NCBI GenBank assembly: GCA_032718475.1
Contig: JAUCBJ010002753.1
Location: 1 to 64,000 of the forward strand
Source: Nemertoderma westbladi
Lineage: Eukaryota > Animalia > Xenacoelomorpha
Length of the DNA: 64,000 bases
Direction: 5' to 3'
Shown here piece by piece: positions 1-56,210 of the stretch (positions are counted from its first letter, which is position 1; every line of letters starts with the position of its first letter). Below the pieces are notes generated by a model. That model was given only the letters and a program-made list of their open reading frames with translations, had not been told where the DNA came from and made no database searches. The position numbers were made by a program, and so were the translations under genes.

Positions 1-3000
1 CAGGTAGGAGAATGTAACGGGATGACATTACCGATAAAACCGTCGCACAGGTAGGAGAATGTAACGGGATGACATTACCGATAAAACCGTCGCACAGGTA
101 GGAGAATGTAACGGGATGACATTACCGATAAAACCGTCGCACAGGTAGGAGAATGTAACGGGATGACATTACCGATAAAACCGTCGCACAGGTAGGAGAA
201 TGTAACGGGATGACATTGCCGATAAAACCGTCGCACAGGTAGGAGAATGTAACGGGATGACATTACCGATAAAACCGTCGCACAGGTAGGAGAATGTAAC
301 GGGATGACATTACCGATAAAACCGTCGCACAGGTAGGAGAATGTAACGGGATGACATTACCGATAAAACCGTCGCACAGGTAGGAGAATGTAACGGGATG
401 ACATTACCGATAAAACCGTCGCACAGGTAGGAGAATGTAACGGGATGACATTACCGATAAAACCGTCGCACAGGTAGGAGAATGTAACGGGATGACATTA
501 CCGATAAAACCGTCGCACAGGTAGGAGAATGTAACGGGATGACATTACCGATAAAACCGTCGCACAGGTAGGAGAATGTAACGGGATGACATTACCGATA
601 AAACCGTCGCACAGGTAGGAGAATGTAACGGGATGACATTACCGATAAAACCGTCGCACAGGTAGGAGAATGTAACGGGATGACATTACCGATAAAACCG
701 TCGCACAGGTAGGAGAATGTAACGGGATGACATTACCGATAAAACCGTCGCACAGGTAGGAGAATGTAACGGGATGACATTACCGATAAAACCGTCGCAC
801 AGGTAGGAGAATGTAACGGGATGACATTACCGATAAAACCGTCGCACAGGTAGGAGAATGTAACGGGATGACATTACCGATAAAACCGTCGCACAGGTAG
901 GAGAATGTAACGGGATGACATTACCGATAAAACCGTCGCACAGGTAGGAGAATGTAACGGGATGACATTACCGATAAAACCGTCGCACAGGTAGGAGAAT
1001 GTAACGGGATGACATTACCGATAAAACCGTCGCACAGGTAGGAGAATGTAACGGGATGACATTACCGATAAAACCGTCGCACAGGTAGGTGAATGTAACG
1101 GGATGACATTACAGATAAAACCGTCGCACAGGTAGGAGAATGTAACGGGATGACATTACCGATAAAACCGTCGCACAGGTAGGAGAATGTAACGGGATGA
1201 CATTACAGATAAAACCGTCGCACAGGTAGGAGAATGTAACGGGATGACATTACCGATAAAACCGTCGCACAGGTAGGAGAATGTAACGGGATGACATTAC
1301 AGATAAAACCGTAGCACAGGTAGGAGAATGTAACGGGATGACATTACCGATAAAACCGTCGCACAGGTAGGAGAATGTAACGGGATGACATTACCGATAA
1401 AACCGTCGCACAGGTAGGAGAATGTAACGGGATGACATTACCGATAAAACCGTCGCACAGGTAGGAGAATGTAACGGGATGACATTACCGATAAAACCGT
1501 CGCACAGGTAGGAGAATGTAACGGGATGACATTACCGATAAAACCGTCGCACAGGTAGGAGAATGTAACGGGATGACATTACCGATAAAACCGTCGCACA
1601 GGTAGGTGAATGTAACGGGATGACATTACAGATAAAACCGTCGCACAGGTAGGAGAATGTAATGGGATGACATTACCGATAAAACCGTCGCACAGGTAGG
1701 AGAATGTAACGGGATGACATTACAGATAAAACCGTCGCACAGGTAGGAGAATGTAACGGGATGACATTACCGATAAAACCGTCGCACAGGTAGGAGAATG
1801 TAACGGGATGACATTACAGATAAAACCGTAGCACAGGTAGGAGAATGTAACGGGATGACATTTCCGATAAAACCGTCGCACAGGTAGGAGAATGTAACGG
1901 GATGACATTAACATTACCGATAAAACCGTCGCACAGGTAGGAGAATGTAACGGGATGACATTACCGATAAAACCGTCGCACAGGTAGGAGAATGTAACGG
2001 GATGACATTACCGATAAAACCGTCGCACAGGTAGGAGAATGTAACGGGATGACATTACCGATAAAACCGTCGCACAGGTAGGAGAATGTAACGGGATGAC
2101 ATTACCGATAAAACCGTCGCACAGGTAGGAGAATGTAACGGGATGACATTAACATTACCGATAAAACCGTCGCTCGGGTAGGAGAATGTAACGGGATGAC
2201 ATTACCGATAAAACCGTCGCACAGGTAGGAGAATGTAACGGGATGACATTACCGATAAAACCGTCGCACAGGTAGGAGAATGTAACGGGATGACATTACC
2301 GATAAAACCGTCGCACAGGTAGGAGAATGTAACGGGATGACATTACCGATAAAACCGTCGCACAGGTAGGAGAATGTAACGGGATGACATTACCGATAAA
2401 ACCGTCGCACAGGTAGGAGAATGTAACGGGATGACATTACCGATAAAACCGTCGCACAGGTAGGAGAATGTAACGGGATGACATTACCGATAAAACCGTC
2501 GCACAGGTAGGATAATGTAACGGGATGACATTACCGATAAAACCGTCGCACAGGTAGGAGAATGTAACGGGATGACATTACCGATAAAACCGTCGCACAG
2601 GTAGGAGAATGTAACGGGATGACATTACCGATAAAACCGTCGCACAGGTAGGAGAATGTAACGGGATGACATTGCCGATAAAACCGTCGCACAGGTAGGA
2701 GAATGTAACGGGATGACATTGTCGATAAAACCGTCGCACAGGTAGGAGAATGTAACGGGATGACATTACCGATAAAACCGTCGCACAGGTAGGAGAATGT
2801 AACGGGATGACATTGCCGATAAAACCGTCGCACAGGTAGGAGAATGTAACGGGATGACATTACCGATAAAACCGTCGCACAGGTAGGAGAATGTAACGGG
2901 ATGACATTACCGATAAAACCGTCGCACAGGTAGGAGAATGTAACGGGATGACATTACCGATAAAACCGTCGCACAGGTAGGAGAATGTAACGGGATGACA

Positions 3001-9000: not shown

Positions 9001-11500
9001 ACGGGATGACATTACCGATAAAACCGTCGCACAGGTAGGAGAATGTAACGGGATGACATTACCGATAAAACCGTCGCACAGGTAGGAGAATGTAACGGGA
9101 TGACATTACCGATAAAACCGTCGCACAGGTAGGAGAATGTAACGGGATGACATTACCGATAAAACCGTCGCACAGGTAGGAGAATGTAACGGGATGACAT
9201 TACCGATAAAACCGTCGCACAGGTAGGAGAATGTAACGGGATGACATTACCGATAAAACCGTCGCACAGGTAGGAGAATGTAACGGGATGACATTACCGA
9301 TAAAACCGTCGCACAGGTAGGAGAATGTAACGGGATGACATTACCGATAAAACCGTCGCACAGGTAGGAGAATGTAACGGGATGACATTACCGATAAAAC
9401 CGTCGCACAGGTAGGAGAATGTAACGGGATGACATTACCGATAAAACCGTCGCACAGGTAGGAGAATGTAACGGGATGACATTACCGATAAAACCGTCGC
9501 ACAGGTAGGAGAATGTAACGGGATGACATTACCGATAAAACCGTCGCACAGGTAGGAGAATGTAACGGGATGACATTACCGATAAAACCGTCGCACAGGT
9601 AGGTGAATGTAACGGGATGACATTACAGATAAAACCGTCGCACAGGTAGGAGAATGTAACGGGATGACATTACCGATAAAACCGTCGCACAGGTAGGAGA
9701 ATGTAACGGGATGACATTAACATTACCGATAAAACCGTCGCACAGGTAGGAGAATGTAACGGGATGACATTACCGATAAAACCGTCGCACAGGTAGGAGA
9801 ATGTAACGGGATGACATTACCGATAAAACCGTCGCACAGGTAGGAGAATGTAACGGGATGACATTACCGTTAAAACCGTCGCACAGGTAGGAGAATGTAA
9901 CGGGATGACATTACCGATAAAACCGTCGCACAGGTAGGAGAATGTAACGGGATGACATTACCGATAAAACCGTCGCACAGGTAGGAGAATGTAACGGGAT
10001 GACATTACCGATAAAACCGTCGCACAGGTAGGAGAATGTAACGGGATGACATTACCGATAAAACCGTCGCACAGGTAGGAGAATGTAACGGGATGACATT
10101 AACATTACCGATAAAACCGTCGCTCGGGTAGGAGAATGTAACGGGATGACATTACCGATAAAACCGTCGCACAGGTAGGAGAATGTAACGGGATGACATT
10201 ACCGATAAAACCGTCGCACAGGTAGGAGAATGTAACGGGATGACATTACCGATAAAACCGTCGCACAGGTAGGAGAATGTAACGGGATGACATTACCGAT
10301 AAAACCGTCGCACAGGTAGGAGAATGTAACGGGATGACATTACCGATAAAACCGTCGCACAGGTAGGAGAATGTAACGGGATGACATTACCGATAAAACC
10401 GTCGCACAGGTAGGAGAATGTAACGGGATGACATTACCGATAAAACCGTCGCACAGGTAGGAGAATGTAACGGGATGACATTACCGATAAAACCGTCGCA
10501 CAGGTAGGAGAATGTAACGGGATGACATTACCGATAAAACCGTCGCACAGGTAGGAGAATGTAACGGGATGACATTACCGATAAAACCGTCGCACAGGTA
10601 GGATAATGTAACGGGATGACATTACCGATAAAACCGTCGCACAGGTAGGAGAATGTAACGGGATGACATTACCGATAAAACCGTCGCACAGGTAGGAGAA
10701 TGTAACGGGATGACATTACCGATAAAACCGTCGCACAGGTAGGAGAATGTAACGGGATGACATTGCCGATAAAACCGTCGCACAGGTAGGAGAATGTAAC
10801 GGGATGACATTGTCGATAAAACCGTCGCACAGGTAGGAGAATGTAACGGGATGACATTACCGATAAAACCGTCGCACAGGTAGGAGAATGTAACGGGATG
10901 ACATTGCCGATAAAACCGTCGCACAGGTAGGAGAATGTAACGGGATGACATTACCGATAAAACCGTCGCACAGGTAGGAGAATGTAACGGGATGACATTA
11001 CCGATAAAACCGTCGCACAGGTAGGAGAATGTAACGGGATGACATTACCGATAAAACCGTCGCACAGGTAGGAGAATGTAACGGGATGACATTACCGATA
11101 AAACCGTCGCACAGGTAGGAGAATGTAACGGGATGACATTACCGATAAAACCGTCGCACAGGTAGGAGAATGTAACGGGATGACATTACCGATAAAACCG
11201 TCGCTCAGGTAGGAGAATGTAACGGGATGACATTAACATTACCGATAAAACCGTCGCACAGGTAGGAGAATGTAACGGGATGACATTGCCGATAAAACCG
11301 TCGCACAGGTAGGAGAATGTAACGGGATGACATTACCGATAAAACCGTCGCACAGGTAGGAGAATGTAACGGGATGACATTACCGATAAAACCGTCGCAC
11401 AGGTAGGAGAATGTAACGGGATGACATTGCCGATAAAACCGTCGCACAGGTAGGAGAATGTAACGGGATGACATTACCGATAAAACCGTCGCTCAGGTAG
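1..11500 (+). repeat. 47-bp minisatellite (CAGGTAGGAGAATGTAACGGGATGACATTACCGATAAAACCGTCGCA)n, about 244 copies, runs off the left edge
   Basis: Near-perfect tandem unit read directly; rare variants include a 6-bp insertion (CATTAACATTA) and GTGAAT, TTACAG, TTGCCG, GCTCGG substitutions; ends at GCTCAGGTAG. Confidence 0.99.
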
Positions 11501-11639
11501 AAAGAGAAAAACAACAAATGTGTGAGTGAGTTTAGTAAATGAACATGTTGTGGGATTGGGAGGACCGAGTATTAGGACATAGTCTTCGCATGTTCGTTTG
11601 TTATTATTTATAATATTGTAGTAATGCATTGTATTACAG

Positions 11640-11763
11640 AGTGAACCCCATTAGAGGAGACAACACTGACAACATGGGAGTCATAGAAATCCTAGATCTC
11701 TTGAATAAACACGTCGCTAGTGGTTTCTCTAGCATTAAACAAGCCTTTCTCTCATTCGATAAT
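11640..11763 (+). CDS. EFCAB6: EFCAB6-like exon 1 (window numbering)
   Basis: tattacag|A GTG AAC ... GAT AAT|gtaagt; (R)VNPIRGD...KQAFLSFDN; preceded by a phase-2 intron. Confidence 0.85.
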
Positions 11764-14700
11764 GTAAGTGAAAGTATTAAATTGGATATATACCAATTTA
11801 TTAAATCGATTCGATGTTGATTCTGTATAGTGTGAATTACTTTCTGTTACTTTCTCGTATATTTTAACAGGATCGAGACGGTAAAATAACCCGAAAGGAA
11901 TTACGCAACATAGTTGAGAGTTTCTGTTTCCGGTTGTCTGACGAACAATTCCGAAATCTCTGCACCCTTCTGGATCCCGAACATAGGAACTTTGTTGATT
12001 ATCAAGCGTTTCTGAATCTGTTCGAAATCACCGAAAATGTTGAGGTAAATAAGATCTTCGTGTTTTACCGTTTCGAATTAGATCCTACATGGGGTTATGT
12101 CCCCCCCCCCCCACCCCTCTAGCCATACGTTGTACCCCGGGCATTCTACCATACGTTGTACCCCGAACATTACGTAGTACCTCCGGACATTCTACCATAC
12201 GTTGTACCCCGGACATTCTACCATACGTTGTACCCCGGACATTCTACCATACGTAGTACCCCGGACATTCTACCATACGTTGTACCCCGGACATTACGTA
12301 GTACCTCCGGATATTCTACCATACGTTGTACCCCGGACATTACGTTGTACCCCGGAAATTCTACCATACGTTGTACCCCGGACATTACGTAGTACCTCCG
12401 GATATTCTACCATACGTTGTACCCCGGACATTACGTTGTACCCCGGACATTCTACCATACGTTGTACCCCGGACATTACGTAGTACCTCCGGATATTCTA
12501 CCATACGTTGTACCCCGGACATTACGTAGTACCCCGGAAATTCTACCATACGTTGTACCCCGGACATTACGTAGTACCTCCGGATATTCTACCATACGTT
12601 GTACCCCGGACATTCTACCATACGTTGTACCCCGGACATTACGTAGTACCCCGGAAATTCTACCATACGTTGTACCCCGGACATTACGTAGTACCTCCGG
12701 ATATTCTACCATACGTTGTACCCCGGGCATTCTACCATACGTTGTACCCCGGACATTACGTAGTACCCCGGAAATTCTACCATACGTTGTACCCCGGACA
12801 TTACGTAGTACCTCCGGATATTCTACCATACGTTGTACCCCGGACATTACGTAGTACCCCGGAAATTCTACCATACGTTGTACCCCGGACATTACGTAGT
12901 ACCTCCGGATATTCTACCATACGTTGTACCCCGGACATTACGTAGTACCCCGGAAATTCTACCATACGTTGTACCCCGGACATTACGTAGTACCTCCGGA
13001 TATTCTACCATACGTTGTACCCCGGGCATTCTACCATACGTTGTACCCCGGACATTACGTAGTACCTCCGGATATTCTACCATACGTTGTACCCCGGACA
13101 TTCTACCATACGTTGTACCCCGGACATTACGTAGTACCCCGGAAATTCTACCATACGTTGTACCCCGGGCATTCTACCATACGTTGTACCCCGGATATTC
13201 TACCATACGTTGTACCCCGGGCATTCTACCATACGTAGTACCCCGGACATTACGTAGTACCCCGGAAATTCTACCATACGTTGTACCCCGGACATTACGT
13301 AGTACCTCCGGATATTCTACCATACGTTGTACCCCGGGCATTCTACCATACGTTGTACCCCGGACATTACGTAGTACCTCCGGATATTCTACCATACGTT
13401 GTACCCCGGACATTCTACCATACGTTGTACCCCGGACATTACGTAGTACCCCGGAAATTCTACCATACGTTGTACCCCGGGCATTCTACCATACGTTGTA
13501 CCCCGGATATTCTACCATACGTTGTACCCCGGGCATTCTACCATACGTAGTACCTCCGGATATTCTACCATACGTTGTACCCCGGGCATTCTACCATACG
13601 TTGTACCCCGGATATTCTACCATACGTTGTACCCCGGGCATTCTACCATACGTTGTACCCCGGATATTCTACCATACGTTGTACCCCGGGCATTCTACCA
13701 TACGTAGTACCCCGGGCATTCTACCATACGTTGTACCCCGGACATTACGTAGTACCCCGGAAATTCTACCATACGTTGTACCCCGGACATTACGTAGTAC
13801 CTCCGGATATTCTACCATACGTTGTACCCCGGACATTACGTAGTACCTCCGGATATTCTACCATACGTTGTACCCCGGACATTCTACCATACGTTGTACC
13901 CCGGACATTACGTAGTACCTCCGGACATTCTACCATACGTTGTACCCCGGACATTACGTAGTACCTCCGGATATTCTACCATACGTTGTACCCCGGACAT
14001 TACGTAGTACCTCCGGATATTCTACCATACGTTGTACCCCGGACATTACGTAGTACCTCCGGACATTCTACCATACGTTGTACCCCGGACATTACGTAGT
14101 ACCTCCGGATATTCTACCATACGTTGTACCCCGGGCATTCTACCATACGTTGTACCCCGGACATTACGTAGTACCTCCGGATATTCTACCATACGTTGTA
14201 CCCCGGACATTCTACCATACGTTGTACCCCGGACATTACGTAGTACCTCCGGATATTCTACCATACGTTGTACCCCGGACATTACGTAGTACCTCCGGAT
14301 ATTCTACCATACGTTGTACCCCGGACATTCTACCATACGTTGTACCCCGGACATTACGTAGTACCTCCGGATATTCTACCATACGTTGTACCCCGGACAT
14401 TACGTAGTACCTCCGGATATTCTACCATACGTTGTACCCCGGACATTCTACCATACGTTGTACCCCGGACATTACGTAGTACCTCCGGATATTCTACCAT
14501 ACGTTGTACCCCGGACATTACGTAGTACCTCCGGATATTCTACCATACGTTGTACCCCGGACATTCTACCATACGTTGTACCCCGGACATTCTACCATAC
14601 GTACTATCCCGGACAATCTACCATATAGTAATTGGTTTTCTTTGATATTTCCCCCCGCTTTATTGAATATCAGAACGTGGTGCTCCTCTAATGGACTTGA

Positions 14701-17700
14701 GAGATACAAAATTGCGACAACCAACCACCATTGAGAATCAACAGAAAGCGCCGATACGCTGAGGATGTAACAAACTTAACTGGGCCGGCCGGCATCATTA
14801 TGAAATGAGGCACTGTTTCAACAATATGTTAACATCGATGCGCATGCGCTTGATATTGTTTATTTAATTTTGAAATGGTTGGATTAAATTTATTATTAAA
14901 TGTAAAACAGAACGACTAAAATAAGGATAATAATTTACAATTTTTTAACGTCTTAGAGTCATAAATGGCTGGATTCGGACCACCGTTATAACGATCAATC
15001 TATGCCACTAATCATGGCGTGGCCCACGGTAGAGGAGATTCTACGCGAGAAGATTACGGAACATTGGCGTGGAGTAGGTGAGCACGTCGCTAAACTAGAC
15101 CCAGAGGGAAAGGGAACGATAAATAGGAACGATTTGAAACAACTCCTCGCAAAGTTCTGCCTTCCTGTTTCGGATGAGCATTTTGACAAGTGAGTTACAG
15201 TTTTAATTTAGTTAGAGATTTCCGATTCCATGTCGGCGTCGGGATAAATAAGAATTAATTTGCTTAAATAGTATTCTTCATGATCATGACTCCCATAATT
15301 TTATGAGTTGAATATTTATTTTCGTAGGTTGTGGAAGCAATGTCCCGAGGATAGCGAGGGGAGAGTGAGTTTCTTTGAGTTTTTGAGTGTTCTCGGGGTA
15401 GAAGCGATTCCAGGCGATACAAAGGGGGTCAGTGAACAAATAACCAAGTCGTCAGAGGAGAGAGAAGGTGATAGACTGGAGGATTTGAGATTACGGTGAG
15501 AAACTATAATTATAGGGAGGGGAGGCTGTCGCATTCAAAATTAAACTCTCCCCAGGGTCAATATCAGTTGATTACGTGTATATATTAAACTGTGGGGCGA
15601 GACACGTAGTCGGCGAGCCTTTGCATACGGTTCATATAGGGTAAATGGGGCATGTCCGTCTGTCTGTCTGTCCGTCTGTCTGGTAAATGTTTGAACGCGA
15701 ATTTCTCGGCATCGCTCGTTCGGAATTGAACCAAACTTAGTAGGTAAGTAGTAGAGAGAAAGTTTAGAAAGTTTGTAAAGTTTGGTGAAAAATCATGCAG
15801 TCTGACGTCAGCTACGACAGATTATGTGGTTTTTAGAAAATGTTAAATTTCTCGGGAAGGCCTCATTTTCCTGAGCTGAAATTTTGGTGGCCTGTAGAGA
15901 ATCATGAAGTCTATCTTTTACGAAATTGAAAAGTTAAGACATTTAATTGGGGATCCGCTAGAGTCTCAGAAGTAATGACATAGGCCTACCGGTACGGTAC
16001 TGCTGTACAGTGCTGCACTGGTAAGTACGAAATTGCAGAATAACAATTTGACACCACCTAGCGGATTAACATATGATTGTATATCGAATGAATACATTTA
16101 TAGCATGGGATATGGGGTCCAAACTAGACATGCCCCATTTGCTCTATATGAACCGTATGCCAAGGCTTGCCGACTACGTGCTGCGCGAAGTCCCCACGAA
16201 CGTGTAACATATTCTATTGCCTTTAGTTTATTGTATTGGTTATAATTAGAGACCATATCCTGCCCCCTCCACTTGTACCATACTCCTATACAATAATGAC
16301 CAATAATTTTTGATATTGAGTTCAATTGTAGTTATTGTTCAGTAATAATAATTATACTGTATAAAACAATTGTAAGGCTTCTAGAACTTATCGGTAATAT
16401 TTATTCATAAATACGCAAAAACATAGAATAATTACTATTTTCTAGAAGTCCTTGGTTTTTATCACGCGTACCATTTAATAATCCATGGGGCATTAGTATA
16501 GTATCTATGCCCAAATTTCAAAAAAAATTGATTAAAATTATTAGTGTTTATAGGTTTATATCATGAGGTTTTTTGTTCTAGAACAAATATTTGGCCATCT
16601 GACAAAAAGATGATAGCTAGTAATTTTGATTTTGTGTTAGCTAGTAATTTTTATTAGCTAGTAAACAATTTAAAATGTAATTTAATCCTCAAATATATTT
16701 GTCAATAAGAATAAGAAATAAATAAGCATTACAACAATAAATAAATTGAAATAAATTGAAATTTATTTTATTTATGTAACCATAGCCTAAACAAAAATAT
16801 ATTATTCTGGAATAAAATTTATAATACAAAACCAAACAACATGTAAAATATCGTATTCCAAAATTTTAACATTACGAAATGATTGTGCATATGCATTATA
16901 AGTGATATATTGTTTACGTGGTAAACCATGACGGCGTTAAGTAATGTCCCCTTAGTGGACATTACTTAACGTCGTCATGCGTCGTCACGTAAACAATAAC
17001 ACCAAAACAATACTAAATGCACAGGCCAATACAATGCTGTAATGTCCTCTAAAGTTGTAAAGTGCTAAATAACAACTCGCTGTAAATACTAACGTCGTTG
17101 AGTAATGTTACAATTTTGGAATAAAATATATTTTCATATAAAAATAAAAAAATTAAAAAAAATAAAAAATTTAGGCATAGATACTATACTAATGCCAATC
17201 CATGGAAACATTATATTCTAGCAAAACATTATTCATAACGTTTTGTTTAATTTGAATAAAAATTACTAAATTAAATACAAAAGTAACTTTTCTTGTAATT
17301 TTACCCGAAAAACAACAACAATAATAATGAATGAAGAAAAGAAACCTTCGACGGAGTACTACAATCCGTATTGGTCGGAATACTATCACGAATACTGCGT
17401 CAAAGGCAACGCCCATCTTCTCAAGAAGAGTCATGTGTTCATGTTCCCACACAGGTGGAATCCCTGGCCTACTTACACACCGTCCAACCTTAGATGGCCT
17501 AGTAGGTTGATCTATTGTAAATCGGAAAGATAATTGAATCGATTGATTGCCACTACTCATAAGGCATCGGTGCGATTCCCAAATCCTCCAAATCTATTTT
17601 ATCAGCTAGTTTTTCTATTTTTTTGTTGTTTAATTTTTAGAACATGATAGTTAGTATTAATAAAGGCAATGTTTTAGAACAAATATTGGTTGTTCTGGAA

Positions 17701-29700: not shown

Positions 29701-32700
29701 CTAAAAATAGGTAGGGGTGTTAGAACCACGTGGCTCCTTTCTTGCACCACTTGGCTCGATTATAAACACAGGTAGGTGTGTTAGCACCACTTGGCTCGAT
29801 TCTAAACACAGGTAGGGGTGTTAGCATCAACGTGGCTCGATTCTAAACACAGGTAGGGGTGTTAGCACCAACATGGCTCGATTCTAAAAATAGGTAGAGG
29901 TGTTAGCACCAACGTGGCTCGATTCCAAACACAGGTAGGGGTGTTAGAACCACGTGGCTCCTTTCTAGCACCACTTGGCTCGATTCTAAACACTGGTAGG
30001 GGTGTTAGCACCATTTGGCTCGATTCTAAAAATAGGTAGGGGTGTTAGCACCACGTGGCTCCTTTCTAGCACCACTTGGCTCGATTCTAAACACTGGTAG
30101 GGGTGTTAGCACCACTTGGCTCGATTCTAAACACAGGTAGGGGTGTTAGCACCAACGTGGCTCGATTCTAAACACAGGTAGGGGTGTTAGCACCAACATG
30201 GCTCGATTCTAAAAATAGGTAGAGGTGTTAGCACCACTTGGCTCGATTCTAAACACAGGTAGGGGTGTTAGCACCAACGTGGCTCGATTCTAAACACAGG
30301 TAGGGGTGTTAGCACCACGTGGCTCCCTTCTAGCACCACTTGGCTCGATTCTAAACACAGGTAGGAGTGTTAGCACCACTTGGCTCGATTCTAAACACAG
30401 GTAGGGGTGTTAGCACCAACGTGGCTCGATTCCAAACACAGGTAGGGGTGTTAGTGTTAGAACCACGTGGCTCCTTTCTAGCACCACTTGGCTCGATTCT
30501 AAACACAGGTAGGGGTATTAGCACCACTTGGCTCGATTCTAAAAATAGGTAGGGGTGTTAGCACCACGTGGCTCCTTTCTAGCACCACTTGGCTCGATTC
30601 TAAACACTGGTAGGGGTGTTAGCACCACTTGGCTCGATTCTAATCACAGGTAGGGGTGTTAGCACCAACGTGGCTCGATTCTAAACACAGGTAGGGGTGT
30701 TAGCACCAACATGGCTCGATTCTAAAAATAGGTAGAGGTGTTAGCACCACTTGGCTCGATTCTAAACACAGGTAGGGGTGTTAGCACCAACGTGGCTCGA
30801 TTCTAAACACAGGTAGGGGTGTTAGCACCACGTGGCTCCTTTCTAGCACCCCTTGGCTCGATTATAAACACAGGTAGGAGTGTTAGCACCACTTGTCTCG
30901 ATTCTAAACACAGGTAGGGGTGTTAGCACCAACGTGGCTCGATTCTAAACACAGGTAGGGGTGTTAGAACCACGTGGCTCCTTTCTAGCACCACTTGGCT
31001 CGATTCTAAACACAGGTATGGGTGTTAGCACCACTTGGCTCGATTCTAAAAATAGGTAGGGGTGTTAGCACCAACGTGGCTCGATTCTAAACACAGGTAG
31101 GGGTGTTAGAACCACGTGGCTCCTTTCTAGCACCACTTGGCTTGATTCTAAACACAGGTAGGTGTGTTAGCACCACTTGGCTCGATTCTAAACACAGGTA
31201 GGGGTGTTAGCACCAACGTGGCTCGATTCCAAACACAGGTAGGGGTGTTAGCACCACGTGGCTCCTTTCTAGCACCACTTGGCTCGATTCTAAACACAGG
31301 TAGGGGTGTTAGCACCAACGTGGCTCGATTCTAAACACAGGTAGGGGTGTTAGCACCAACGTGGCTCGATTCTAAACACAGGTAGGGGTGTTAGCACCAC
31401 TTGGCTCGATTCTAAACACAGGTAGGGGTGTTAGCTCCACGTGGCTCCTTTCTAGCACCACTTGGCTCGATTCTAAACACAGGTAGGGGTGTTAGCACCA
31501 ACGTGGCTCGATTCTAAACACAGGTAGGGGTGTTAGCACCAACGTGGCTCGATTCTAAACACAGGTAGGGGTGTTAGCACCAACGTGGCTCGATTCTAAA
31601 CACAGGTAGGGGTGTTAGCACCACTTGGCTCGATTCTAAACACAGGTAGGTGTGTTAGCACCAATGTGGCTCGATTCTAAACACAGGTAGGTGTGTTAGC
31701 ACCAACGTGGCTCGATTCTAAGGACAGGTAGGGGTGTTAGCACCACTTGGCTCGATTCTAAACACAGGTAGGTGTGTTAGCACCAACATGGCTCGATTCT
31801 AAACACAGGTAGGTGTGTTAGCACCAACGTGGCTCGATTCTAAACACAGGTAAGGGTGTTAGAACCAAAGTGGCTCGATTCTAAACACAGGTAGGGGTGT
31901 TAGCACCACTTGGCTCGATTCTAAACACAGGTAGGTGTGTTAGCACCAACGTGGCTCGATTCTAAGCAAAGGTGGGGGTGTTAGCACCAATGTGATGTCA
32001 CATATCTCCAGTGCCACAACAAATTTTGTAACACTTCCATTGAATCTCAGTTTCTGAGATTATTGTCGAAAATTCATGTTATGTAGTGTGAATTATAATC
32101 AGAGGTTAATGTGAATTATTTATTAATAATTTTGTTGATAATATGGTTTATTATAAGTGTATAAGCTTAAAACTTCAGTTTATATAATTTCCTAAATATT
32201 ATTTTTTAATAATTAGTAATTATGCGTTAATTAGGTATAATGATACATATGACCCTTGTGAACTCGGTGCGGGTCAGGTTCATGAGATGCTCAAATCTAA
32301 AGCTAGAGGGCGCTTCCATGATTTGTCACGTGCGTTCGGAGCACTGGTCGCACGTGATGGTGGTTACATCACGAAGAAACACTTCCAGCGGATGTTGTGG
32401 CAGTTCAACTTGCCTATGACTCCGGGCGAATTCGATAAGCTCTGGAGGCGGTGAGTTTAATATGGTTGGCTATTTGAAAATATGTCGCGAAATCTATGTA
32501 ATTATTTTACATAATTACAAATAGCCAACCTGCGTCAACGGATTGGTTCTGTGTGCAGGCAGGTAATGCTGCTTGTATCAAGGAATCGTTTGGCCCAGGC
32601 ATGGGAGTCTTACAGAGATAATTATGGGCCCTAGATTCGGCATCCATTGTCATTTGTCATTTCCATAGTATTTCCTTACCAGTTTTAATGTGATAATTTT

Positions 32701-35700
32701 TTTTTATTATTATTTTAATTTTTTTTTATTTTTTTCTTTCAGTTTGTGATATCTGCAAATTCTTACTCGTCCTATTAACGCTTTACCTTTATATTCTCTT
32801 ATATCTTACTGTGGTTTTTAAAATTTAATATTAATTTGTGTAATTTATAGGCCTATTTGGTTTCGTAATATTTTGGTATAATTTAGTGTATTTTAACCAT
32901 TCATCTTTCCTAATATGTTGATTAAAATTTGTGTAATTTAGACAAACGTGTATGAAATTGTGCTGTACACTTTGTGAACTGTATGTATTATTATTATTTA
33001 TTCATTTATTAATTCACAACGATTAACAAATACAAAAATTAATACTGACATTATTTTTATTCTTAAATTGTTACTTTTTCGCTCGAATATACTAGTGGTT
33101 AAACGGGATCAGACTCTTCGGGATTTCCGGGATCGGGACCGGGATTATCACTCTCGGGATCCCGATTTTCGGCATCGGGATTCGAATTTTGAATTCGATT
33201 TTCTTAAAGTTTTCAGTATATTATATTACTGTGTTCGTATAAAACGGATTTTTGGCGAAATTATATCACTTTATTTCATACTGCTGAAATATTTTGTCTG
33301 ATAAAATATAATAAAATTTATTTATAGTTGATTACTGGAATCCAGTAATCCGACAATTCGATGTAATCAATAGATTTCTCTTCATCGCGATTCTCTCGTC
33401 CCTTTATTAACCTCGCTGGCGTTCGTTAAATTAAATGCCTCGGGAATAATGAAAAAAAGTTCTACCTTTTTTTTTTTTTTTAATAAAGATTCTTATTTCC
33501 AGTAAAATAATGCAATTTAGCTATCAGCATTAGGAATTATTGTTGAAAGGGAAATTTTGTGAAATAAGATTTTGTATTGCAGGAAAGATTCTTCCCCTAT
33601 TGAACTCTTGATAATTAACCTAGCTCGCTTCGCAAAGACTACATCACAGTGTCAGGGGGAAAATACCCCTTTGTTTTCCGTGTAATAATAACTAATTATT
33701 TATCTTTTATCTTTCAACGTATAATAGATAAATATCGATGTATTTGGAGAAAGTTTCTCACAATTTTGTTTATCGTTTACTTCATATATTCGCATTTTGT
33801 TTCTCCGTTTAGCTACGATGCGGACGGGGCTGGTAAACTTTCCTTCAAGGCTTTCCAACAGCTCCTCGGGCTGGAGTTCTCGCCTGGGGACAACCACGGC
33901 GTGTCTCGTCGGATAGCCGAAGGTAGTGCGGAGGCGTTCACGGTCCATCTAGCTGGGCAGGAGGAGCGCCAGGAAGGAATGGCGGTCCAACAGATGAGAG
34001 CGACAAGTATACTCACCGCCCGGGAGGTAGAGGAACACCTCAAGTGAGTTGCATATTGTCCTCATATTGTCCTGGACCTTATAGTCTTTATTATCCGCAC
34101 TTTGCGGACACTACAGGGGATATTTTAAAGAAAGAAAATTATGATAATTTTTTTTATCAAACATAATAATTTATTCGTTTAATATTATCGCAGGGATCGT
34201 TTTAGAGATAATTACCAGGACCTCCACGCCGCCTTTAGGAAGGTCGACCTCAATAAAGACGGATTCTTGTCAGTGCAAGAATTCCAGAAAGTTCTCGCGG
34301 ATATGAATTACATTATGGATATGGAGACCTTCATCGAATTACTCGAAAGGTATGTTACCGTGCTTTATGCGAACAGCTCTTTGTACACCAGATATTCCAA
34401 GATATTCAATAGTGTTATGGTTATTGTCATGGAACCAGAGGCTCTTGGATTTTATTCTAGAATATATTTTAATAAACACAATTTAGATATTTTCTACAGT
34501 AGGCCTTTCTGATATTCGAATTGCTAATATAATATTAATCACATTGAATCGGTAATAGTTAATTTTAGAGGTTGTTAAATTTATATTTTCAGTCTCGGAT
34601 CATTAATTCAATAATTATCAATTAATTTATCGAGCTGAATTTTTCAGAGTAGATACCTAAGATCCGAGGAATAACATCGAATTCTACACTCATCATCATT
34701 CTCATCAGTTATATGGCTATAGTACTCTATGCTGATTGCCTGTATATATTTTATAACATATAACATAATAACACTTAGTGTTATATGTCATGAGCAAAAA
34801 GTCTCAAAGACTACTTACTACATTGGTTCAAGGCATTCTAGAACCGTGGAAAATGTCCTAGAACATTGCAAAATATTATAGAACAGTGCTAAATGTTCTA
34901 GAACAGTTCAAAAGCTTCTAGAATAGTGCACAATCTTCTATAGCAGTTCAAAGGGTTCTATATAGTGCCAATTGTTTTATAAAAGTTCAAAAGGTTCTAG
35001 AATAGTGCAAAATGTTCTAGTGCAGGGTAAATGATATTTTTAATTCTATTTATCCGGTTTAGTTTGTATTTATGAATGTGCATGTAGTATATCTACCAAT
35101 TACAAAAAGTAATTACTATTATTATGATGTAGTGCAGGGAGACCTCAAGTGACAATATTATAATATATAAACCACAGTTTTAGCAAGCTTTCACACACAG
35201 GGCTTCTTCCGGCTAAGAGTACAATAAAATTGAGCACCGAAAAAGCTTGGAAAATCTACGTGAAAGCTAGCTAGAACTGTGGGCTATTTATTTGTAGTCA
35301 TTTGAGGTCTCCCCGCATTAGTAATAGTAATCACGATCACACTAGTGGCGAGAGCGGGTCGGTATTTGTATACTGATTACTAAAAGCAGTGTATGAATTC
35401 ATGGTTTCCTGTGTCACATGTTATTCCTGTAGGACCTAGGCAAGTACTTACTCTGAGTAATTCAACTTTATAAACATTTACTTGATATATTTCACTATAC
35501 ATTTTTGGGATTAATCTGCGATAAGTTTATTCTCAACAGCTGTAACTTTTTGAGTCGGTAAGTTTAGATTTTGCTTGAATTGTGTGACATTATTTCCTTA
35601 ACTGGATCTTAAACATTTTATAGGAAAAAGCTCAGTCTGATCAATGAAATCAAACTTTAATAATGTATTACGGTAAATTGTTTATATGTTTTAAATATTT

Positions 35701-38700
35701 TACGGTAAATATTTTAGTCTTATATAGAAATATTTGACCGTTACAGGCTAGGTTTATAGAAACATTTGTCCGTTACAGGCTAGGTTTATAAAAACATTTG
35801 TCCGTTACAGGCTAGGTTTATAGAAACATTTGTCCGTTACAGGCTAGGTTTATAAAAACATTTGTCCGTTACAGGCTAGGTTTATAGAAGCATTTGTCCA
35901 TTACATGCTAGGTTTATAGAAACATTTGTCCGTTACAGGCTAGGTTTATAGAAACATTTGTCCATTACAGGCTAGGTTTATAAAGACATTTGTCCGTTAC
36001 AGGCTAGGTTTATAGAAGCATTTGTCCGTTACAGGCTAGGTTTATATAAACATTTGTCCGTTACAGGCTAGGTTTATAGAAACATTTGTCCATTACAGGC
36101 TAGGTTTATAAAGACATTTATCCGTTACAGGCTAGGTTTATAAAAACATTTGTCCGTTACAGGCTAGGTTTATAGAAGCATTTGTCCATTACATGCTAGG
36201 TTTATAGAAACATTTGTCCGTTACAGGCTAGGTTTATAGAAACATTTGTCCATTACAGGCTAGGTTTATAAAGACATTTGTCCGTTACAGGCTAGGTTTA
36301 TAGAAGCATTTGTCCGTTACAGGCTAGGTTTATATAAACATTTGTCCGTTACAGGCTAGGTTTATAGAAACATTTGTCCATTACAGGCTAGGTTTATAAA
36401 GACATTTATCCGTTACAGGCTAGGTTTATAGAAACATTTGTCGGTTACAGGCTAGGTTTATATAAACATTTGTCCGTTACAGGCTAGGTTTATAGAAGCA
36501 TTTGTCCATTACATGCTAGGTTTATAAAGACATTTGTCCGTTACAGGCTAGGTTTATAGAAACATTTGTCCGTTACAGGCTAGGTTTATATAAACATTTG
36601 TCCGTTACAGGCTAGGTTTATAGAAGCATTTGTCCATTACATGCTAGGTTTATAAAGACATTTGTCCGTTACAGGCTAGGTTTATAGAAACATTTGTCCG
36701 TTACAGGCTAGGTTTATAGAAGCATTTGTCCATTACAGGCTAGGTTTATAGAAGCATTTGTCCATTACATGCTAGGTTTATAAAGACATTTGTCCGTTAC
36801 AGGCTAGGTTTATAGAAACATTTGTCCGTTACAGGCTAGGTTTATAGAAGCATTTGTCCATTACAGGCTAGGTTTATAAAGACATTTGTCCGTTACAGGC
36901 TAGGTTTATAGAAACATTTGTCCGTTACAGGCTAGGTTTATAGAAACATTTGTCCGTTACAGGCTAGGTTTATATAAACATTTGTCCGTTACAGGCTAGG
37001 TTTATAGAAGCATTTGTCCATTACAGGCTAGGTTTATAAAGACATTTGTCCGTTACAGGCTAGGTTTATAGAAACATTTGTCCGTTACAGGCTAGGTTTA
37101 TAGAAACATTTGTCCGTTACAGGCTAGGTTTATATAAACATTTGTCCGTTACAGGCTAGGTTTATAGAAACATTTGTCCGTTACAGGCTAGGTTTATAGA
37201 AGCATTTGTCCATTACAGGCTAGGTTTATAAAGACACTTGTCCGTTACAGGCTAGGTTTATAGAAACATTTGTCCGTTACAGGCTAGGTTTATAGAAGCA
37301 TTTGTCCATTACAGGCTAGGTTTATAAAGACATTTGTCCGTTACAGGCTAGGTTTATAGAAGCATTTGTCCATTACAGGCTAGGTTTATAAAGACATTTG
37401 TCCGTTACAGGCTAGGTTTATAGAAACATTTATCCGTTACAGGCTAGGTTTATATAAACATTTGTCCGTTACAGGCTAGGTTTATAGAATCATTTATCCG
37501 TTACAGGCTAGGTTTATAGAAACATTTGTCCGTTACAGGCTAGGTTTATATAAACATTTGTCCGTTACAGGCTAGGTTTACCAACAAACGAATCTCGCTT
37601 TTCCTACACTCGTTTTCTGGAGGCTATAGACGAAGGAATGCATCCGCGGTTCAAACGCCAAGCCGTTTTCGCAGAAGGTCCTGAACATTTTGAACATATG
37701 AGTGTCAGCAATGCGATGGCGAAGCTCGCTGAGAGAACTACGAACAACATGAAAGCTATCGTTTCTGTGAGTTTCCGTTACTTAGTCCCGGACTTATTGT
37801 TTATTGTTCTGAAACGTTATTTGTTTTTTGCTTTCTAGTAATTATTTAGTAGGCTGTGTTCGTTATATTTCTCGCAACAGTAGGAGTCGGTTTACTAGCG
37901 GAGCGCAAAGAGGCAAGTGAAGTAGACAAGAAGTACTTTTATCAACGGGATTTATGTAATTATATTCAAAAATTGAAACATATATTTCCGACTTTCCGAT
38001 GAGGCACTGTTTAAAATAAAATTAATTAAATATAAATAATTTCATTTACAGGTACCGTACAGTGTTTATCGCCAATACTACTGTTTGATATGCTGATTGA
38101 TACCGGAACAACAGCACAGTATATATTGTATATGAATCTGAAACTAAAATTTTACAATAGCTGTAGTACCGGTACCTTGGTTCACTTATTGTAATAATTT
38201 GAGTGTGAGCGGCAGATAAGGGGATATTTTCGACGCAATAAAAATTCATATTAATTCGCCGGATATTAATTTGCCAACATGGGATTTGCGTCCAGTTTCC
38301 CCCCGGACATAAAATATAAACTTTTTTGACGTTGTTGAAACTGACAGAGGTAATAAATGTTTCAACTTTTTAATAAATAATATTAATAATAATGCTTAAA
38401 ATTGGACCTCTTCAATCACATCCCTACTTCATTAGGACTATATACACATAAATTCTCCCTTGGTTTAACACAACTGGTCTGGCCGTTTACTATTTATTTA
38501 TTTAGGCTTTCCATTCGTTTGATAAAACTGGAGTGGGACGCGTAAAGGGCCAGGATTTCCGACGAATCCTCGATAACTTCTGTTTCCGTCTCAATGACTC
38601 CCAATGGAACGGTCTGCTCTCTCATCTACACGTCTTTGACGATCTCACACTCAACTACAACGATTTCCTCGAAACATTTGTGTCTGAAGATTCAGTTGTA

Positions 38701-41700
38701 AGTAATCTGTGTAAGAATAGGTATCAGGTAACCCAGAATATATGTTGTAATTCGAGTAAAGTATTGTCGATGTTTAATAATCTAACTCGAGCACTAAGGC
38801 CCCTGATGAACATTATACGATACACCATATATAGTCATCATCAATAAACTAAATACAATTATAGTGAAACTGCACTTAATTCAAAGCATTATTTACAGGT
38901 ACATCATTGTGTGCAAATTAGCAGCACTTTGCAGCGTTATGACTCGAGTATATTTATGTACCGAGCGAGCGCAGCGAGGGAGGTTTACATAAATAAAAAG
39001 TGTCTTTAACGCTGAAAAGTGACCTTTGCAAGCAATGATTTATGTAATTTTGTTACATTATGTCAACTTATCAGCGTTCGGTACGCGGAGAAAGTATTTA
39101 CTATCATTCATTACCGTTTGGGAATTTAAATTGGGTTCATTATCGTACCTTGTTTTACTTTAATGTAACAAAGTTTAGTAGTCGAACTTTGTTGCACTTG
39201 TTGTGGTTCGAATGGAGGCACAGAATTAGTCCCACGGCTTGGGCACACTCGGACAGCCAAGCCAAGGATGCAGTTTAAGGCTGCATTTAGGCCCCTGATC
39301 AGGCAGAACTCGGATAATCTGGATGAGCTTATTAATAAGCAGGGTGAGGCCATCTACAATGCCGATGCCAAGAGGCAGGTAATCGCTCAACCTGGTAAGA
39401 AAAGCCAATAAACCATCAATGACCAGGCTGAATCTCTAGCTGACCGCCTCAACGGAAGGGCCCAGGCTGAATCTCCAGCTGACCGCCTCAACGGAAGGGC
39501 CCAGGCTGAATCTCCAGCTGACCGCCTCAACGGAAGGGCCCAGGCTGAATCTCCAGCTGACCGCCTCAACGGAAGGGCCCAGGCTGAATCTCCAGCTGAC
39601 CGCCTCAACGGAAGGGCCCAGGCTGAATCTCCAGCTGACCGCCTCAACGGAAGGGCCCAGGTTGAATCTCCAGCTGACCGCCTCAACGGAAGGGCCAAGG
39701 TTGAATCTCCAGCTGACCGCCTCAACGGAAGGACCCAGGCTGAATCTCCAGCTGACCGCCTCAACGGAAGGGCCCAGGTTGAATCTCCAGCTGACCGCCT
39801 CAACGGTAGGGCCCAGGCTGAATCTCCAGCTGACCGCCTCAACGGAAGGACCCAGGCTGAATCTCCAGCTGACCGCCTCAACGGAAGGGCCCAGGTTGAA
39901 TCTCCAGCTGACCGCCTCAACGGAAGGACCCAGGCTGAATCTCCAGCTGACCGCCTCAACGGAAGGGCCCAGGTTGAATCTCCAGCTGACCGCCTCTACG
40001 GGAGGGTCCAGGCTGAATCTCCAGCTGACCGCCTCAACGGAAGGACCCAGGCTGAATCTCCAGCTGACCGCCTCAACGGAAGGACCCAGGCTGAATCTCC
40101 AGCTGACCGCCTCAACGGAAGGGCCTAGGCTGAATCTCCAGCTGACCGCCTCAACTTAAGGGCCCAGGCTGAATCTCCAGCTGACCGCCTCAACGGAAGG
40201 GCCCAGGCTGAATCTCCAGCTGACCGCCTCAACGGAAGGGCCCAGGCTGAATCTCCAGCTGACCGCCTCAATGGAAGGGCCACTTTGAGAAGCTCCTAAA
40301 CAATTATTGCCTGATAACTTTGTGATACATTGTCTGCTTATGTCTGTACTCCCAAATATTCCCATTGGCGACATCTCCTTTGCTGAAGTCAAGGCTGCTT
40401 CGAAGAGCATCAACACCAATTGTGCCAGTGGATTAGATTACGTATATCCTGAGGTCTTTAAAATACCTGATATAGCGAGTATAGATATAACTAAGAGAGT
40501 CCCACAAGAAATGAAAACAAATAAGTTGGTGCCAGTTCTCAAGAAGGGCAACCTAACACTCTATGGTTCTTTTCGGGGAATCTCGTCGATCTCGATTGCT
40601 GCAAAGCTATACAATATAATTCTATTAAATCGCATCAGGGATCCCATTGGGAGACTGCTCCGTGGAAATCGGAATGGGTTCCGTAAAGGTCGTGGGACCA
40701 TGGAGCCCATTTAGGGAAGGATAATTGAAGAGTTATTTGAAGAAAAAGAAAGATAAACAGACATCTGGTTGCTATGTTTGGTGAATTCTTCAAGGCCTTA
40801 GATTTTCGATTAAGTTTCTCGCTCACGTATGTTCATCATACTTGATTATATGGGATTCCTGGGAAAATTATTGCTACTCTATCAGAACACTACAATAATG
40901 GTTCTACTATGGCATCTGATTAGTATCAAAGCCCAATATTTTTAAACATATTGAATTTTCATCACATAAATTCAATCAATATTGTGCAATTATTGATTCA
41001 ATATTGAATTAATGTGTTGGCAGGTTGGGCAAATATTGAATCAATATGTTAACATGGTGGCGGGTCTGTCAATTACCGACCGAACCTGGGAAAGGACGAG
41101 TTGAAATAAGGTGAACATTGGAACATCCGACCGACCAGGCTAGCAGTAAGAAAAAGCCACAAAATAATATCGTACCAAAATCCCATCTTGACGTAGTGGT
41201 TAAATCATATATCTTTAATTCACATATCTCCCCGGAGGTCGTGAGTTCGATCCCCGTATGGGGGCCAGGGTAGTTTTCGTACGAATGCTTTAAAGGTACT
41301 AACCAGGGAGCATCTTTGTATTGCATCCTTAAATGGTAGCTAAATGAGTACTGGAGTTTCCTCTTGGGAGTATAGTTCTGGGGGGACCGCACTGGAAATA
41401 CGTCGCCAGTTTTTGTGGGTTATCTTTTTTTTTTAATTCGATTAAAGTAAGGGGATTGGGGTGTTAAATATTAAGGGCGATGGTATACAAACATGCTCTA
41501 TATCACTCTTATCTTGGAATCACAATTCATTCATGTGATTCGATTATTCCAGAGGAAATAATTGTTTCTTAAAACTGTAACATAATTATTAACGGAATTA
41601 ATTCAGATTTATTTATTATATTGAAAAAAAAATAATTATCAATCTGCGAACACATGAATAGGATAAAATCTTTTTATTTTAAACTCATTATCTACATTAA

Positions 41701-51880: not shown

Positions 51881-52539
51881 ACTAGGTTTTTAGTGTATCA
51901 TTGGGAAAGGGTTAAGGTAATGAAGAGCCAAAGGCGGTTCTCTAGTTTGCAGAAATGTGGACAACCAGGAAAGTTTCCTTTCAATTTGGGTTTAATGGCT
52001 TTGAATAACGCCTCTTTCATTATCTATATAACAATCAATGTCTATTCATATCAATGGCCGTAAGGCCAACACTATTTCCCGTCATTATGAGTGAAAGGAA
52101 AACCAACCCCATGCGAGGGAGTGCCGCATACATTAGGGCCGGCCAACCCAGTATAACACAATGGCTTGGGGCTGCGTTACAAACCCTATGCAACCGCGTG
52201 GATCCACTTTCAATAGATGTGCCGTTATAGTATTGTTGAGCTGATAATGAGATCCAGCCCCATGATCCACTAATGGAAGTGAGATCAATGAACCATCCCT
52301 ATCAGAAAGGCCTTTAATGTAGTCCAATATGCCTATTTTTTATCGGTTATAGATATTATTGCTAATAATGTAGCTTAGCGTAATTAATGGTTTTCTTTTG
52401 GCGACCCCCCCCATGCTGCGTTGAGAGTATATCACTAATTATTGTCAAGTTGGCGTAAAATAAGTCGTGAAATAAAGTATTTAATGTGTTCCTATTGTTT
52501 TGCATTGTAGACTAACGGCGAGTTATATGTCATGGATCA

Positions 52540-55996: not shown

Positions 55997-56210
55997 GAGG
56001 TGAAAAGGAAATAAAGGGGAGGTGGAAAGGAAATAAAGGGGAGGTGAAAAGGAAATAAAGGGGAGGAAAAGTTAATAAAGGGGAGGTGAAAAGGAAATAA
56101 AGGGGTGGTGGAAAGGTAATAAAGGGGAGGTGAAAAGGAAATAAAGGGGAGGTGAAAAGGAAATAAAGGGGAGGTGGAAAGGAAATAAAGCGGAGGTGAA
56201 AAGGAAATAA
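55997..56210 (+). repeat. 22-bp purine-rich minisatellite (GGGGAGGTGAAAAGGAAATAAA)n, about 10 copies
   Basis: Tandem unit read directly. Confidence 0.93.

What the first reader, a model, noticed from the sequence alone, without database searches (positions are those of the whole stretch)
1..48351. Recurrent amplification of exon-intron junctions into minisatellites: arrays of decoy splice sites inside an intact gene
Seen: two unrelated kb-scale arrays have units straddling real junctions (exon-7 donor, exon-11 acceptor). The 47-mer very probably straddles the donor of the exon just outside the window. Two decayed short repeats abut the exon-14 and exon-17 acceptors. Donor arrays grow into the downstream intron and acceptor arrays into the upstream intron, so only the exon-adjacent copy gives an open frame. 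Established: duplicated splice sites normally compete. Inference: local tandem duplication is frequent in this genome and splicing ignores tens to hundreds of near-identical sites, presumably through strict exon definition plus NMD. I do not know of this being described at this scale, but I cannot search the literature.
Basis: partly seen in the sequence, partly recalled or inferred. Interest (0 to 1): 0.9.

Follow-up and report, generated by a model that had tools for sequence, protein, structure and literature searches.

The report
Giant splice-junction minisatellites in EFCAB6
In a calcium-binding-protein gene of what is likely an invertebrate animal, three exon edges with their splice signals have been copied head-to-tail 58, about 142 and at least 243 times, yet a spliced, likely RNA-derived sequence keeps only one copy at the largest array; this is an unusually large case of a known oddity ("mirage" repeats) and likely a tolerated by-product of DNA duplication.

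Summary
The gene is an EFCAB6 orthologue whose 17 in-window exons are frame-compatible and align in order to a sea-star protein. Three young arrays straddle real junctions: a 47-mer (at least 243 copies, donor of the upstream exon), a 41-mer (about 142, exon-7 donor) and a 32-mer (58, exon-11 acceptor). A decayed 19-20-mer also straddles the exon-14 acceptor; the exon-17 repeat is intronic only. One spliced contig joins unique upstream exon, exactly one 47-mer unit and exons 1-3. Every decoy leads to a stop within 11 codons. The kind is published: lancelet "mirages" and human F7, CBS, IFI6, LMNB2 and PDGF minisatellites, with about 3-26 copies, and this scan found it before in other genomes (up to about 105 copies, unchecked notes). 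What stands out is scale, several arrays in one gene, and a rough tenfold difference in 47-mer depth between two DNA samples. Junction enrichment (4 of 9 arrays, 0.55-0.65 expected) is in-window and post hoc; no genome was available. Exon definition plus NMD is untested; position-based choice of the exon-adjacent site fits better. New member of a known kind; interest 0.36.

The parts
1..11500 (+). 47-bp minisatellite, at least 243 copies (runs off the window); unit = last 43 bases of the upstream exon + first 4 intron bases (CAG|GTAG); phase-2 donor array
11497..11639 (+). Inferred ancestral 143-base intron behind the last 47-mer unit
   Evidence: array end and acceptor at 11640
11640..11763 (+). 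Exon 1 in the window (phase 2 in, 0 out)
   Evidence: spliced contig joints 11449/11640 and 11763/11871; aligns to P0001 411-449
11871..12044 (+). Exon 2 (EF-hand); spliced to exon 3 across the 26/46-mer array
   Evidence: loose end equals exon 3 start
12118..14625 (.). 26/46-bp intronic minisatellite, not on a junction (74 bases behind the exon-2 donor)
14957..19211 (+). Exons 3-6 (14957-15189, 15328-15495, 18491-18662, 18960-19211)
23288..24713 (.). 33-bp intronic minisatellite, 43 copies, not on a junction
25319..25548 (+). Exon 7; its donor (phase 2) lies in the first 41-mer unit
25520..31994 (+). 41-bp minisatellite, about 142 units; 29 exon + 12 intron bases; 128 decoy donors; 7-base exact microhomology at the two ends
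32235..34349 (+). Exons 8-10 (32235-32450, 33813-34043, 34194-34349)
34836..35020 (.). Decayed 20-bp intronic repeat, not on a junction
35723..37580 (+). 32-bp minisatellite, 58 units; 22 intron + 10 exon bases; 52 decoy acceptors upstream of the real one at 37571
37571..37766 (+). Exon 11 (phase 2 in)
38506..42015 (+). Exons 12-13 (38506-38697, 41779-42015) with a 39-bp intronic array (39423-40281) between them
42102..42246 (+). Decayed 19-20-bp repeat that straddles the exon-14 acceptor (42231); one upstream copy keeps AG
42231..43451 (+). Exons 14-15 (42231-42434, 43169-43451)
43494..47744 (.). 23-bp intronic minisatellite, 186 copies, 43 bases behind the exon-15 donor, not on a junction
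47964..48151 (+). Exon 16
48206..48351 (+). Decayed intronic repeat of about 30 bases that ends at the exon-17 acceptor; no exon sequence in it
48352..48626 (+). Exon 17 coding part with stop codon; EF-hand pair

Best explanation
Three young minisatellites in an intact EFCAB6 gene each repeat a unit that spans a real splice junction; they likely began as short, microhomology-guided tandem duplications and likely grew by unequal exchange, and splicing likely picks the copy next to the full exon by position while rare errors would be removed as stop-codon transcripts. Shown: unit anatomy, copy numbers, short shared words at array ends (3 bases at the 47-mer, 7 at the 41-mer, 2 at the 32-mer), multi-kb block repeats inside the 47-mer array, stops behind every decoy, and one spliced contig with a single 47-mer unit. 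Inferred: duplications arise all over this repeat-prone locus, those inside exons are purged, and those that span an edge survive because one intact edge remains. For donors the first site met after the exon wins, as shown for human F7. For the acceptor the site followed by unique exon sequence wins. NMD is a likely backstop, not the selector. The arrays likely have no function.
For: Exon model and colinear alignment to EFCAB6. Spliced contig: unique exon, one unit, exon 1, exon 2, exon 3. Array words at depth 4400-5000 against 24.8 for the flank in X1, and 279 against 13.2 in X2: real, and likely variable in length. Five of 9 arrays in the gene lie off any junction, so the process does not need a junction. 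Exact internal repeats of up to 1622 bases at a 5582-base offset. Stops: directly behind both donors (codon at +2..+4) and after 3 codons in 44 or 11 codons in 8 of 52 decoy acceptors. Splice dinucleotides are not eroded in the two donor arrays (0 of 243; 1.4% and 0.7% against 4.2% elsewhere) and lost in 5 of 58 acceptor units through one shared variant: no sign of purging. Precedent: F7 uses only the most upstream of 5-9 identical donors; lancelet mirages are reported not to disturb splicing.
Against: Four of 9 arrays span a junction against 0.55 expected (P 0.0013), or 0.65 when matched for GC (P 0.0023): more than blind placement predicts, although the window was chosen for this. RNA evidence is one contig of depth 11.4 at one junction, from a run listed as 'DNA?' and from a third sample whose array length is unknown; contigs drop rare forms. 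The exon-7 and exon-11 junctions were not seen in RNA. In IFI6 and CBS two pseudo-sites are used besides the real one, so decoys need not be silent. Positional scanning from a branch point would favour an upstream decoy at the acceptor array, so that side rests on inference.
Confidence: 0.72

Rival explanations
1. Splice junctions are real hot spots for the birth or survival of minisatellites in this genome (for example through transcription- or splicing-coupled DNA repair at exon edges), beyond what blind placement plus purging of exonic arrays gives.
For: 4 of 9 arrays of 100 bp or more, and 3 of 7 kb-scale arrays, span a junction; expected 0.55-0.65 and 0.48-0.56 (P 0.001-0.002 and 0.009-0.013); GC matching does not remove the excess. 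Two more arrays start 43 and 74 bases behind a donor.
Against: One window, picked after the fact from a very large scan; n = 9. Of 33 in-window junctions tested, 30 show no clear copy of the edge in the flanking intron (the weakest other case, acceptor 3, had 4 of 200 shuffles as high). Unchecked scan notes report about twofold enrichment in one genome and none in another.
Confidence: 0.3
2. Decoys are used often and the products are destroyed by nonsense-mediated decay, so the clean mRNA is a survivor effect and array length tunes gene output.
For: Every decoy product has an early stop; all three young arrays sit at phase-2 junctions, where read-through of GTAG gives a stop at once (7 of 17 introns are phase 2). 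Rough tenfold depth difference between samples gives the variation needed.
Against: The F7 study found in-frame pseudo-sites unused and a positional rule instead. With 128-242 equal competitors, random choice would leave under 1% correct mRNA per junction. No expression data by genotype.
Confidence: 0.15
3. The arrays are self-erasing: each unit holds AG|GT, so splicing from one unit to the same point of another removes whole units and rebuilds the true junction (recursive, ratchet-like splicing).
For: AGGT occurs about once per unit on the sense strand in all three young junction arrays (1.02, 0.99, 1.0) and in 0, 0, 0.23 and 0 per unit in the four kb-scale non-junction arrays of the gene. 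The final mRNA would look the same as the contig seen.
Against: The AGs of the 47- and 41-mer units lack the T-rich tract of the real acceptors here; 8 of 17 real donors end in AG anyway; both extragenic arrays also hold AGGT (0.89, 0.92 per unit); the decayed exon-14 repeat has none. Recursive splicing is recalled knowledge, not tested here.
Confidence: 0.08
4. The arrays are assembly artefacts or are much inflated by the assembler.
For: X2 suggests only about 21 copies of the 47-mer; X1 may be the source sample; raw long reads were not seen; the 41- and 32-mer arrays were not checked in other runs.
Against: Units differ by patterned variants and sub-families; 47-mer words are present at high depth in two samples of two studies, and both array edges are on DNA contigs.
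Confidence: 0.04

Closest known systems
Lancelet 'mirage' minisatellites (Adh3, globins BflGb6/BflGb9, troponin C, PGBD5). PMC3087553: passages read; PMC3902484: one passage; Canestro et al. 2002 (PMC117041) not held, known only as cited
   Same: Tandem units that span exon-intron edges, on donor and on acceptor sides, many with intact AG/GT, units of 10-72 bp at Adh3, unstable length, reported normal splicing.
   Different: Globin mirages have 3-6 units; here 58, about 142 and at least 243, up to more than 11.5 kb, three young arrays and one old one in one gene. I could not see the Adh3 copy numbers. Somatic instability was not tested here.
Human F7 intron-7 37-bp VNTR, and the IFI6 (6-16), CBS intron 13, LMNB2 and PDGF minisatellites. 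PMC1557585: abstract, introduction and discussion read
   Same: First unit spans the donor; identical pseudo-donors follow; the most upstream site is used; length is polymorphic.
   Different: 5-26 copies and donors only. F7 units are mostly intron (4 exon + 33 intron bases); the 47-mer here is mostly exon (43 + 4). IFI6 and CBS also use two pseudo-sites; that was not seen here, on thin data.
[quoted passage not shown] PMC2630376: passages
   Same: Duplicated acceptor-side junction; splicing strongly favours the site next to the full exon.
   Different: One extra copy, against 52 decoy acceptors here.
Internal tandem repeats at exon-intron boundaries in human segmental duplications. PMC2812944: passages
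   Same: Minisatellite units of about 30 bp at exon-intron boundaries; link to intron gain from AG/GT duplication.
   Different: On average 4 copies and 160 bp, often with alternative transcripts; no new intron was shown here.

Membership tests
Mirage / junction-spanning minisatellite | Tandem unit contains exon and intron sequence across a real junction | tested here: met
   47-, 41-, 32- and 19-20-mers. Not met by the exon-17 repeat, which is intronic only.
Mirage / junction-spanning minisatellite | Many copies keep the splice dinucleotide | tested here: met
   243 of 243 GT; 129 donor-like sites with GT among about 142 units; 53 of 58 AG.
Mirage / junction-spanning minisatellite | mRNA is spliced normally at the authentic site | tested here: inconclusive
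   Met for the 47-mer by one spliced contig; exon-7 and exon-11 junctions not seen in RNA; array length of that sample unknown.
Mirage / junction-spanning minisatellite | Length polymorphism between individuals or haplotypes | tested here: inconclusive
   Depth ratio about 180-200 in X1 and about 21 in X2; the tool warns that contig depth is no copy number, and library bias is not excluded.
Mirage / junction-spanning minisatellite | Somatic instability (reported for Adh3) | not testable with these tools
   Needs single-molecule reads from one animal.
EFCAB6 (DJBP) orthologue | Many EF-hand pairs with EF-hand_11 (PF08976) matches, colinear with named EFCAB6 proteins | tested here: met
   Pfam hits in 8 of 9 exons scanned, PF08976 in 5; hits named EFCAB6; all exons colinear with P0001 397-1545, exons 14 and 15 overlapping in a low-similarity linker.
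Recursive-splicing ratchet points | AG|GT preceded by a strong pyrimidine tract and used as a splicing intermediate | tested here: inconclusive
   AG|GT is in every unit; the T-rich tract is missing in the donor arrays; intermediates were not testable. Definition recalled.
Intron gain by tandem duplication of AG/GT (Rogers model) | A new intron arises inside formerly continuous coding sequence | tested here: not met
   Each array lies in an intron that keeps unique sequence and its own partner splice site when the array is collapsed (143, 252 and 1230 bases).

The most novel reading that the evidence does not exclude
Splice junctions seed minisatellites preferentially in this animal, and arrays of hundreds of copies survive because every unit carries AG|GT: splicing between any two units deletes whole units and rebuilds the true junction, so the array erases itself from the RNA by ratchet-like splicing. 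The tenfold length variation between individuals would make a natural dose series for how a spliceosome handles 20 versus 240 identical sites.
Probability: 0.08. Interest if true: 0.75.

Novelty: new member of a known kind. Interest (0 to 1): 0.36.

Why it matters
How a spliceosome chooses among identical sites has been studied with 2-9 copies. Here 74 donors are identical to the real one over 20 bases and 37 acceptors over 22 bases, in an endogenous gene, with likely natural length variation. That gives a strong natural test of positional scanning against exon definition, NMD and recursive splicing, above all on the acceptor side, where scanning predicts the wrong site. It also shows how short introns (about 143-430 bases when collapsed) can grow 7- to 80-fold by local repeats without transposons, and warns that such arrays can mislead gene prediction and read mapping. 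It does not show a new kind of element.

Tried and rejected
Genome-wide test: no genome held; no earlier notes for this genome. X5 laid nothing. Homologue search with exon 7 found nothing. GC content as the cause of the junction excess: large arrays are GC-rich (0.46-0.62 in 6 of 7 kb-scale arrays against 0.34 for collapsed introns), but matching for GC moved the expectation only from 0.55 to 0.65; rejected as the main cause. My first idea that the real exon lies at the right end of the 47-mer array (an open frame runs into a strong-looking donor near 11525) was rejected by the spliced contig and by the protein alignment. Selection against decoy GT/AG in young arrays: no sign. The exon-17 repeat as a junction-spanning unit: rejected. 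blastn between two LINE-like stretches gave no hit. Literature searches for larger arrays or a genome-wide survey found none above about 26 copies; the library lacks most subscription journals, PMC117041 was not held, and no supplements were read, so larger published cases may exist. PMC10078293 (passages) was not relevant. The organism was placed only loosely: best summed exon scores were to sea star, lancelet and crinoid proteins (20 best shown of the proteins of 600 aa or more).

Full report
Gene. The window holds the last 17 exons of a multi-EF-hand gene on the + strand. Exons 2-17 have AG/GT ends, matching phases and no internal stop up to the stop codon in exon 17; exon 1 is 11640-11763. 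Eight of 9 exons scanned hit EF-hand families. Exon 17 finds proteins named EFCAB6, and every exon aligns in order to the sea-star protein P0001, residues 397-1545. At the three array junctions the alignment leaves exactly one residue, the split codon (409/411, 859/861, 1060/1062), so the junctions are placed independently of the repeats. The best summed scores are to sea star, lancelet and crinoid proteins at modest identity, so the organism is likely an invertebrate animal. No genome was held.

Arrays. Nine merged arrays of 100 bp or more lie in the gene and fill 29,207 of the first 48,626 bases. Four span a junction. The 41-mer (25520-31994) starts 29 bases inside exon 7; 129 sites match the donor within 2 of 12 bases with GT intact, 142 units are found with a 20-base probe, and 74 are identical to the real donor over -10..+10. 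The 32-mer (35723-37580) ends 10 bases inside exon 11; 53 of 58 units keep AG, 37 are identical to the real acceptor over -12..+10 and 8 over -27..+10. The 47-mer (1-11500) has 243 units in the window, all with GT. The decayed 19-20-mer before exon 14 is made of copies of the exon's first bases (best 16/20, 0 of 2000 shuffles), so it straddles the acceptor; only one upstream copy keeps AG. The repeat before exon 17 (4 copies of a 13-mer, spacing 56, 30, 30) ends at the AG but has no exon sequence. Of 33 in-window junctions tested for a copy of the edge in the flanking intron, only donor 7, acceptor 11 and acceptor 14 stood out clearly.

The 47-mer and RNA. The run search listed no RNA holder. 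I laid 4 of the 6 listed runs on 11400-12090. In X4, one contig of 704 bases and depth 11.4 was laid. It covers only exons, with GT..AG joints 11449/11640 and 11763/11871 and a loose end equal to the start of exon 3, so it is likely RNA-derived although listed as 'DNA?'. It carries exactly one 47-mer unit, preceded by 26 unique letters. A DNA contig of X1 shows the same unique letters running into the array. So the array starts inside the upstream exon, the unit is 43 exon plus 4 intron bases, and the spliced product is what use of the first donor gives. No contig with repeated units was laid from X4, but contigs drop rare forms, and the array length of that sample is unknown. X5 laid nothing. 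In DNA runs the repeat words have depth 4400-5000 against 24.8 for the flank (X1, which may be the source sample) and 279 against 13.2 (X2, another study): roughly 180-200 and 21. The tool warns that such depth is no copy number; I take it as support that the array is real and as a hint of length polymorphism.

Origin. The ends share short words, as expected of microhomology-guided duplication: 7 exact bases (10 of 11) at the 41-mer, 3 at the 47-mer, 2 at the 32-mer. The 47-mer array holds exact internal repeats of up to 1622 bases at a 5582-base offset, as expected of growth by unequal exchange; the mechanism itself is inferred. With arrays collapsed, introns 2, 7 and 15 are 430, 252 and 284 bases and the intron before exon 1 is 143.

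Consequences of decoy use. All three young arrays sit at phase-2 junctions (7 of 17 introns are phase 2). Read-through of either donor meets a stop in the next codon, so the 48 of 128 41-mer decoys that are in frame are blocked too. All 52 decoy acceptors give a stop after 3 codons (44) or 11 codons (8). NMD could therefore hide errors (established knowledge; not tested). The splice dinucleotides are not eroded faster than other positions in the donor arrays, and 5 of 58 acceptor units lost AG through one shared variant, so there is no sign that decoys are being purged.

Chance. Placing unit-length seeds at random on the collapsed gene, not wholly in exons, gives 0.55 junction-spanning arrays of 9; 4 were seen (P 0.0013). 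Matching for GC gives 0.65 (P 0.0023); for the 7 kb-scale arrays 3 were seen against 0.48-0.56 (P 0.009-0.013). The window was chosen for this feature from a very large scan, so these values do not show genome-wide enrichment. Unchecked notes on two other genomes report about twofold and no enrichment.

How the right site is chosen. For donors, the F7 study (PMC1557585; abstract, introduction, discussion) found identical pseudo-donors functional but unused, the most upstream site winning, and in-frame pseudo-sites unused too; this fits the X4 contig. For acceptors, CBS 844ins68 shows the site next to the full exon favoured in a single duplication (PMC2630376, passages). Exon length cannot explain the choice at exon 11, since the next decoys would give 228 and 260 bases within the gene's range of 124-283; what is unique to the real site is the exon sequence beyond base 10, so exonic signals are my inference. 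A bolder rival comes from one pattern: all three young junction arrays hold sense AG|GT once per unit, the four kb-scale non-junction arrays of the gene almost never. Splicing between units would then rebuild the true junction. Against it, the unit AGs of the donor arrays lack a T-rich tract, 8 of 17 real donors end in AG anyway, and both extragenic arrays hold AGGT too.

Prior art. A scan note gave the term 'mirage', which I checked: PMC3087553 (passages) describes tandem duplications of both 5' and 3' exon-intron boundaries in lancelet genes, 3-6 units in globins, unstable in length and without effect on splicing; PMC3902484 (one passage) adds troponin C and PGBD5. PMC1557585 lists human cases with 5-26 copies; PMC2812944 (passages) surveys human repeats at boundaries (4 copies on average). 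The original Adh3 paper was not held. Seven searches found no case of hundreds of copies and no genome-wide survey in an invertebrate; the library is incomplete and no supplements were read. The scan has noted this kind in at least six other genomes, up to about 105 copies (unchecked).

Verdict. A real feature and a large one, but a new member of a known kind. Its value is as a natural test system for splice-site choice among hundreds of identical sites. Interest 0.36; best explanation 0.72; most novel reading 0.08.

Noticed in passing
window 21190-21298: A tRNA-Val(AAC) gene in intron 6 whose last 32 bases are tandemly duplicated (2.2 copies): the same local duplication process acting on the edge of another functional element. 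A tRNA-Cys(GCA) gene follows at 21715-21786.
   Followed up: partly
window 11403-11500: The duplication changed the real donor: the ancestral site (now the last copy) reads CAG|GTAGAA, while the array consensus, and by inference the used first copy, reads CAG|GTAGGA and so gains the consensus +5 G.
   Followed up: partly
window 1-11500 and 25520-31994: Both donor arrays arose at the same kind of site, a phase-2 intron after His-Arg in internally repeated parts of the protein, and both share CACAG|GTAG; they are the only GTAG donors among 17.
   Followed up: no
window 37539-37570: The exon-adjacent 32-mer unit carries a variant that removes an upstream AG and the early stop; 8 units share that context, so it does not single out the real acceptor.
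   Followed up: partly
window 52500-54370: Broken non-LTR retrotransposon fragment with a reverse-transcriptase match (PF00078); a second LINE-like stretch by eye at about 39200-40900 hosts the 39-mer array (no blastn match between them).
   Followed up: partly
window 61032-63716: An 894-codon open frame with many C2H2 zinc fingers.
   Followed up: partly
window 49590-51879 and 55997-56211: Two more minisatellites (29 bp and 22 bp) outside the gene; arrays of 100 bp or more fill 49.5% of the window, and most large arrays are far more GC-rich than the collapsed introns.
   Followed up: partly
window 12118-14625 and 43494-47744: Two purely intronic kb-scale arrays start only 74 and 43 bases behind a donor.
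   Followed up: no
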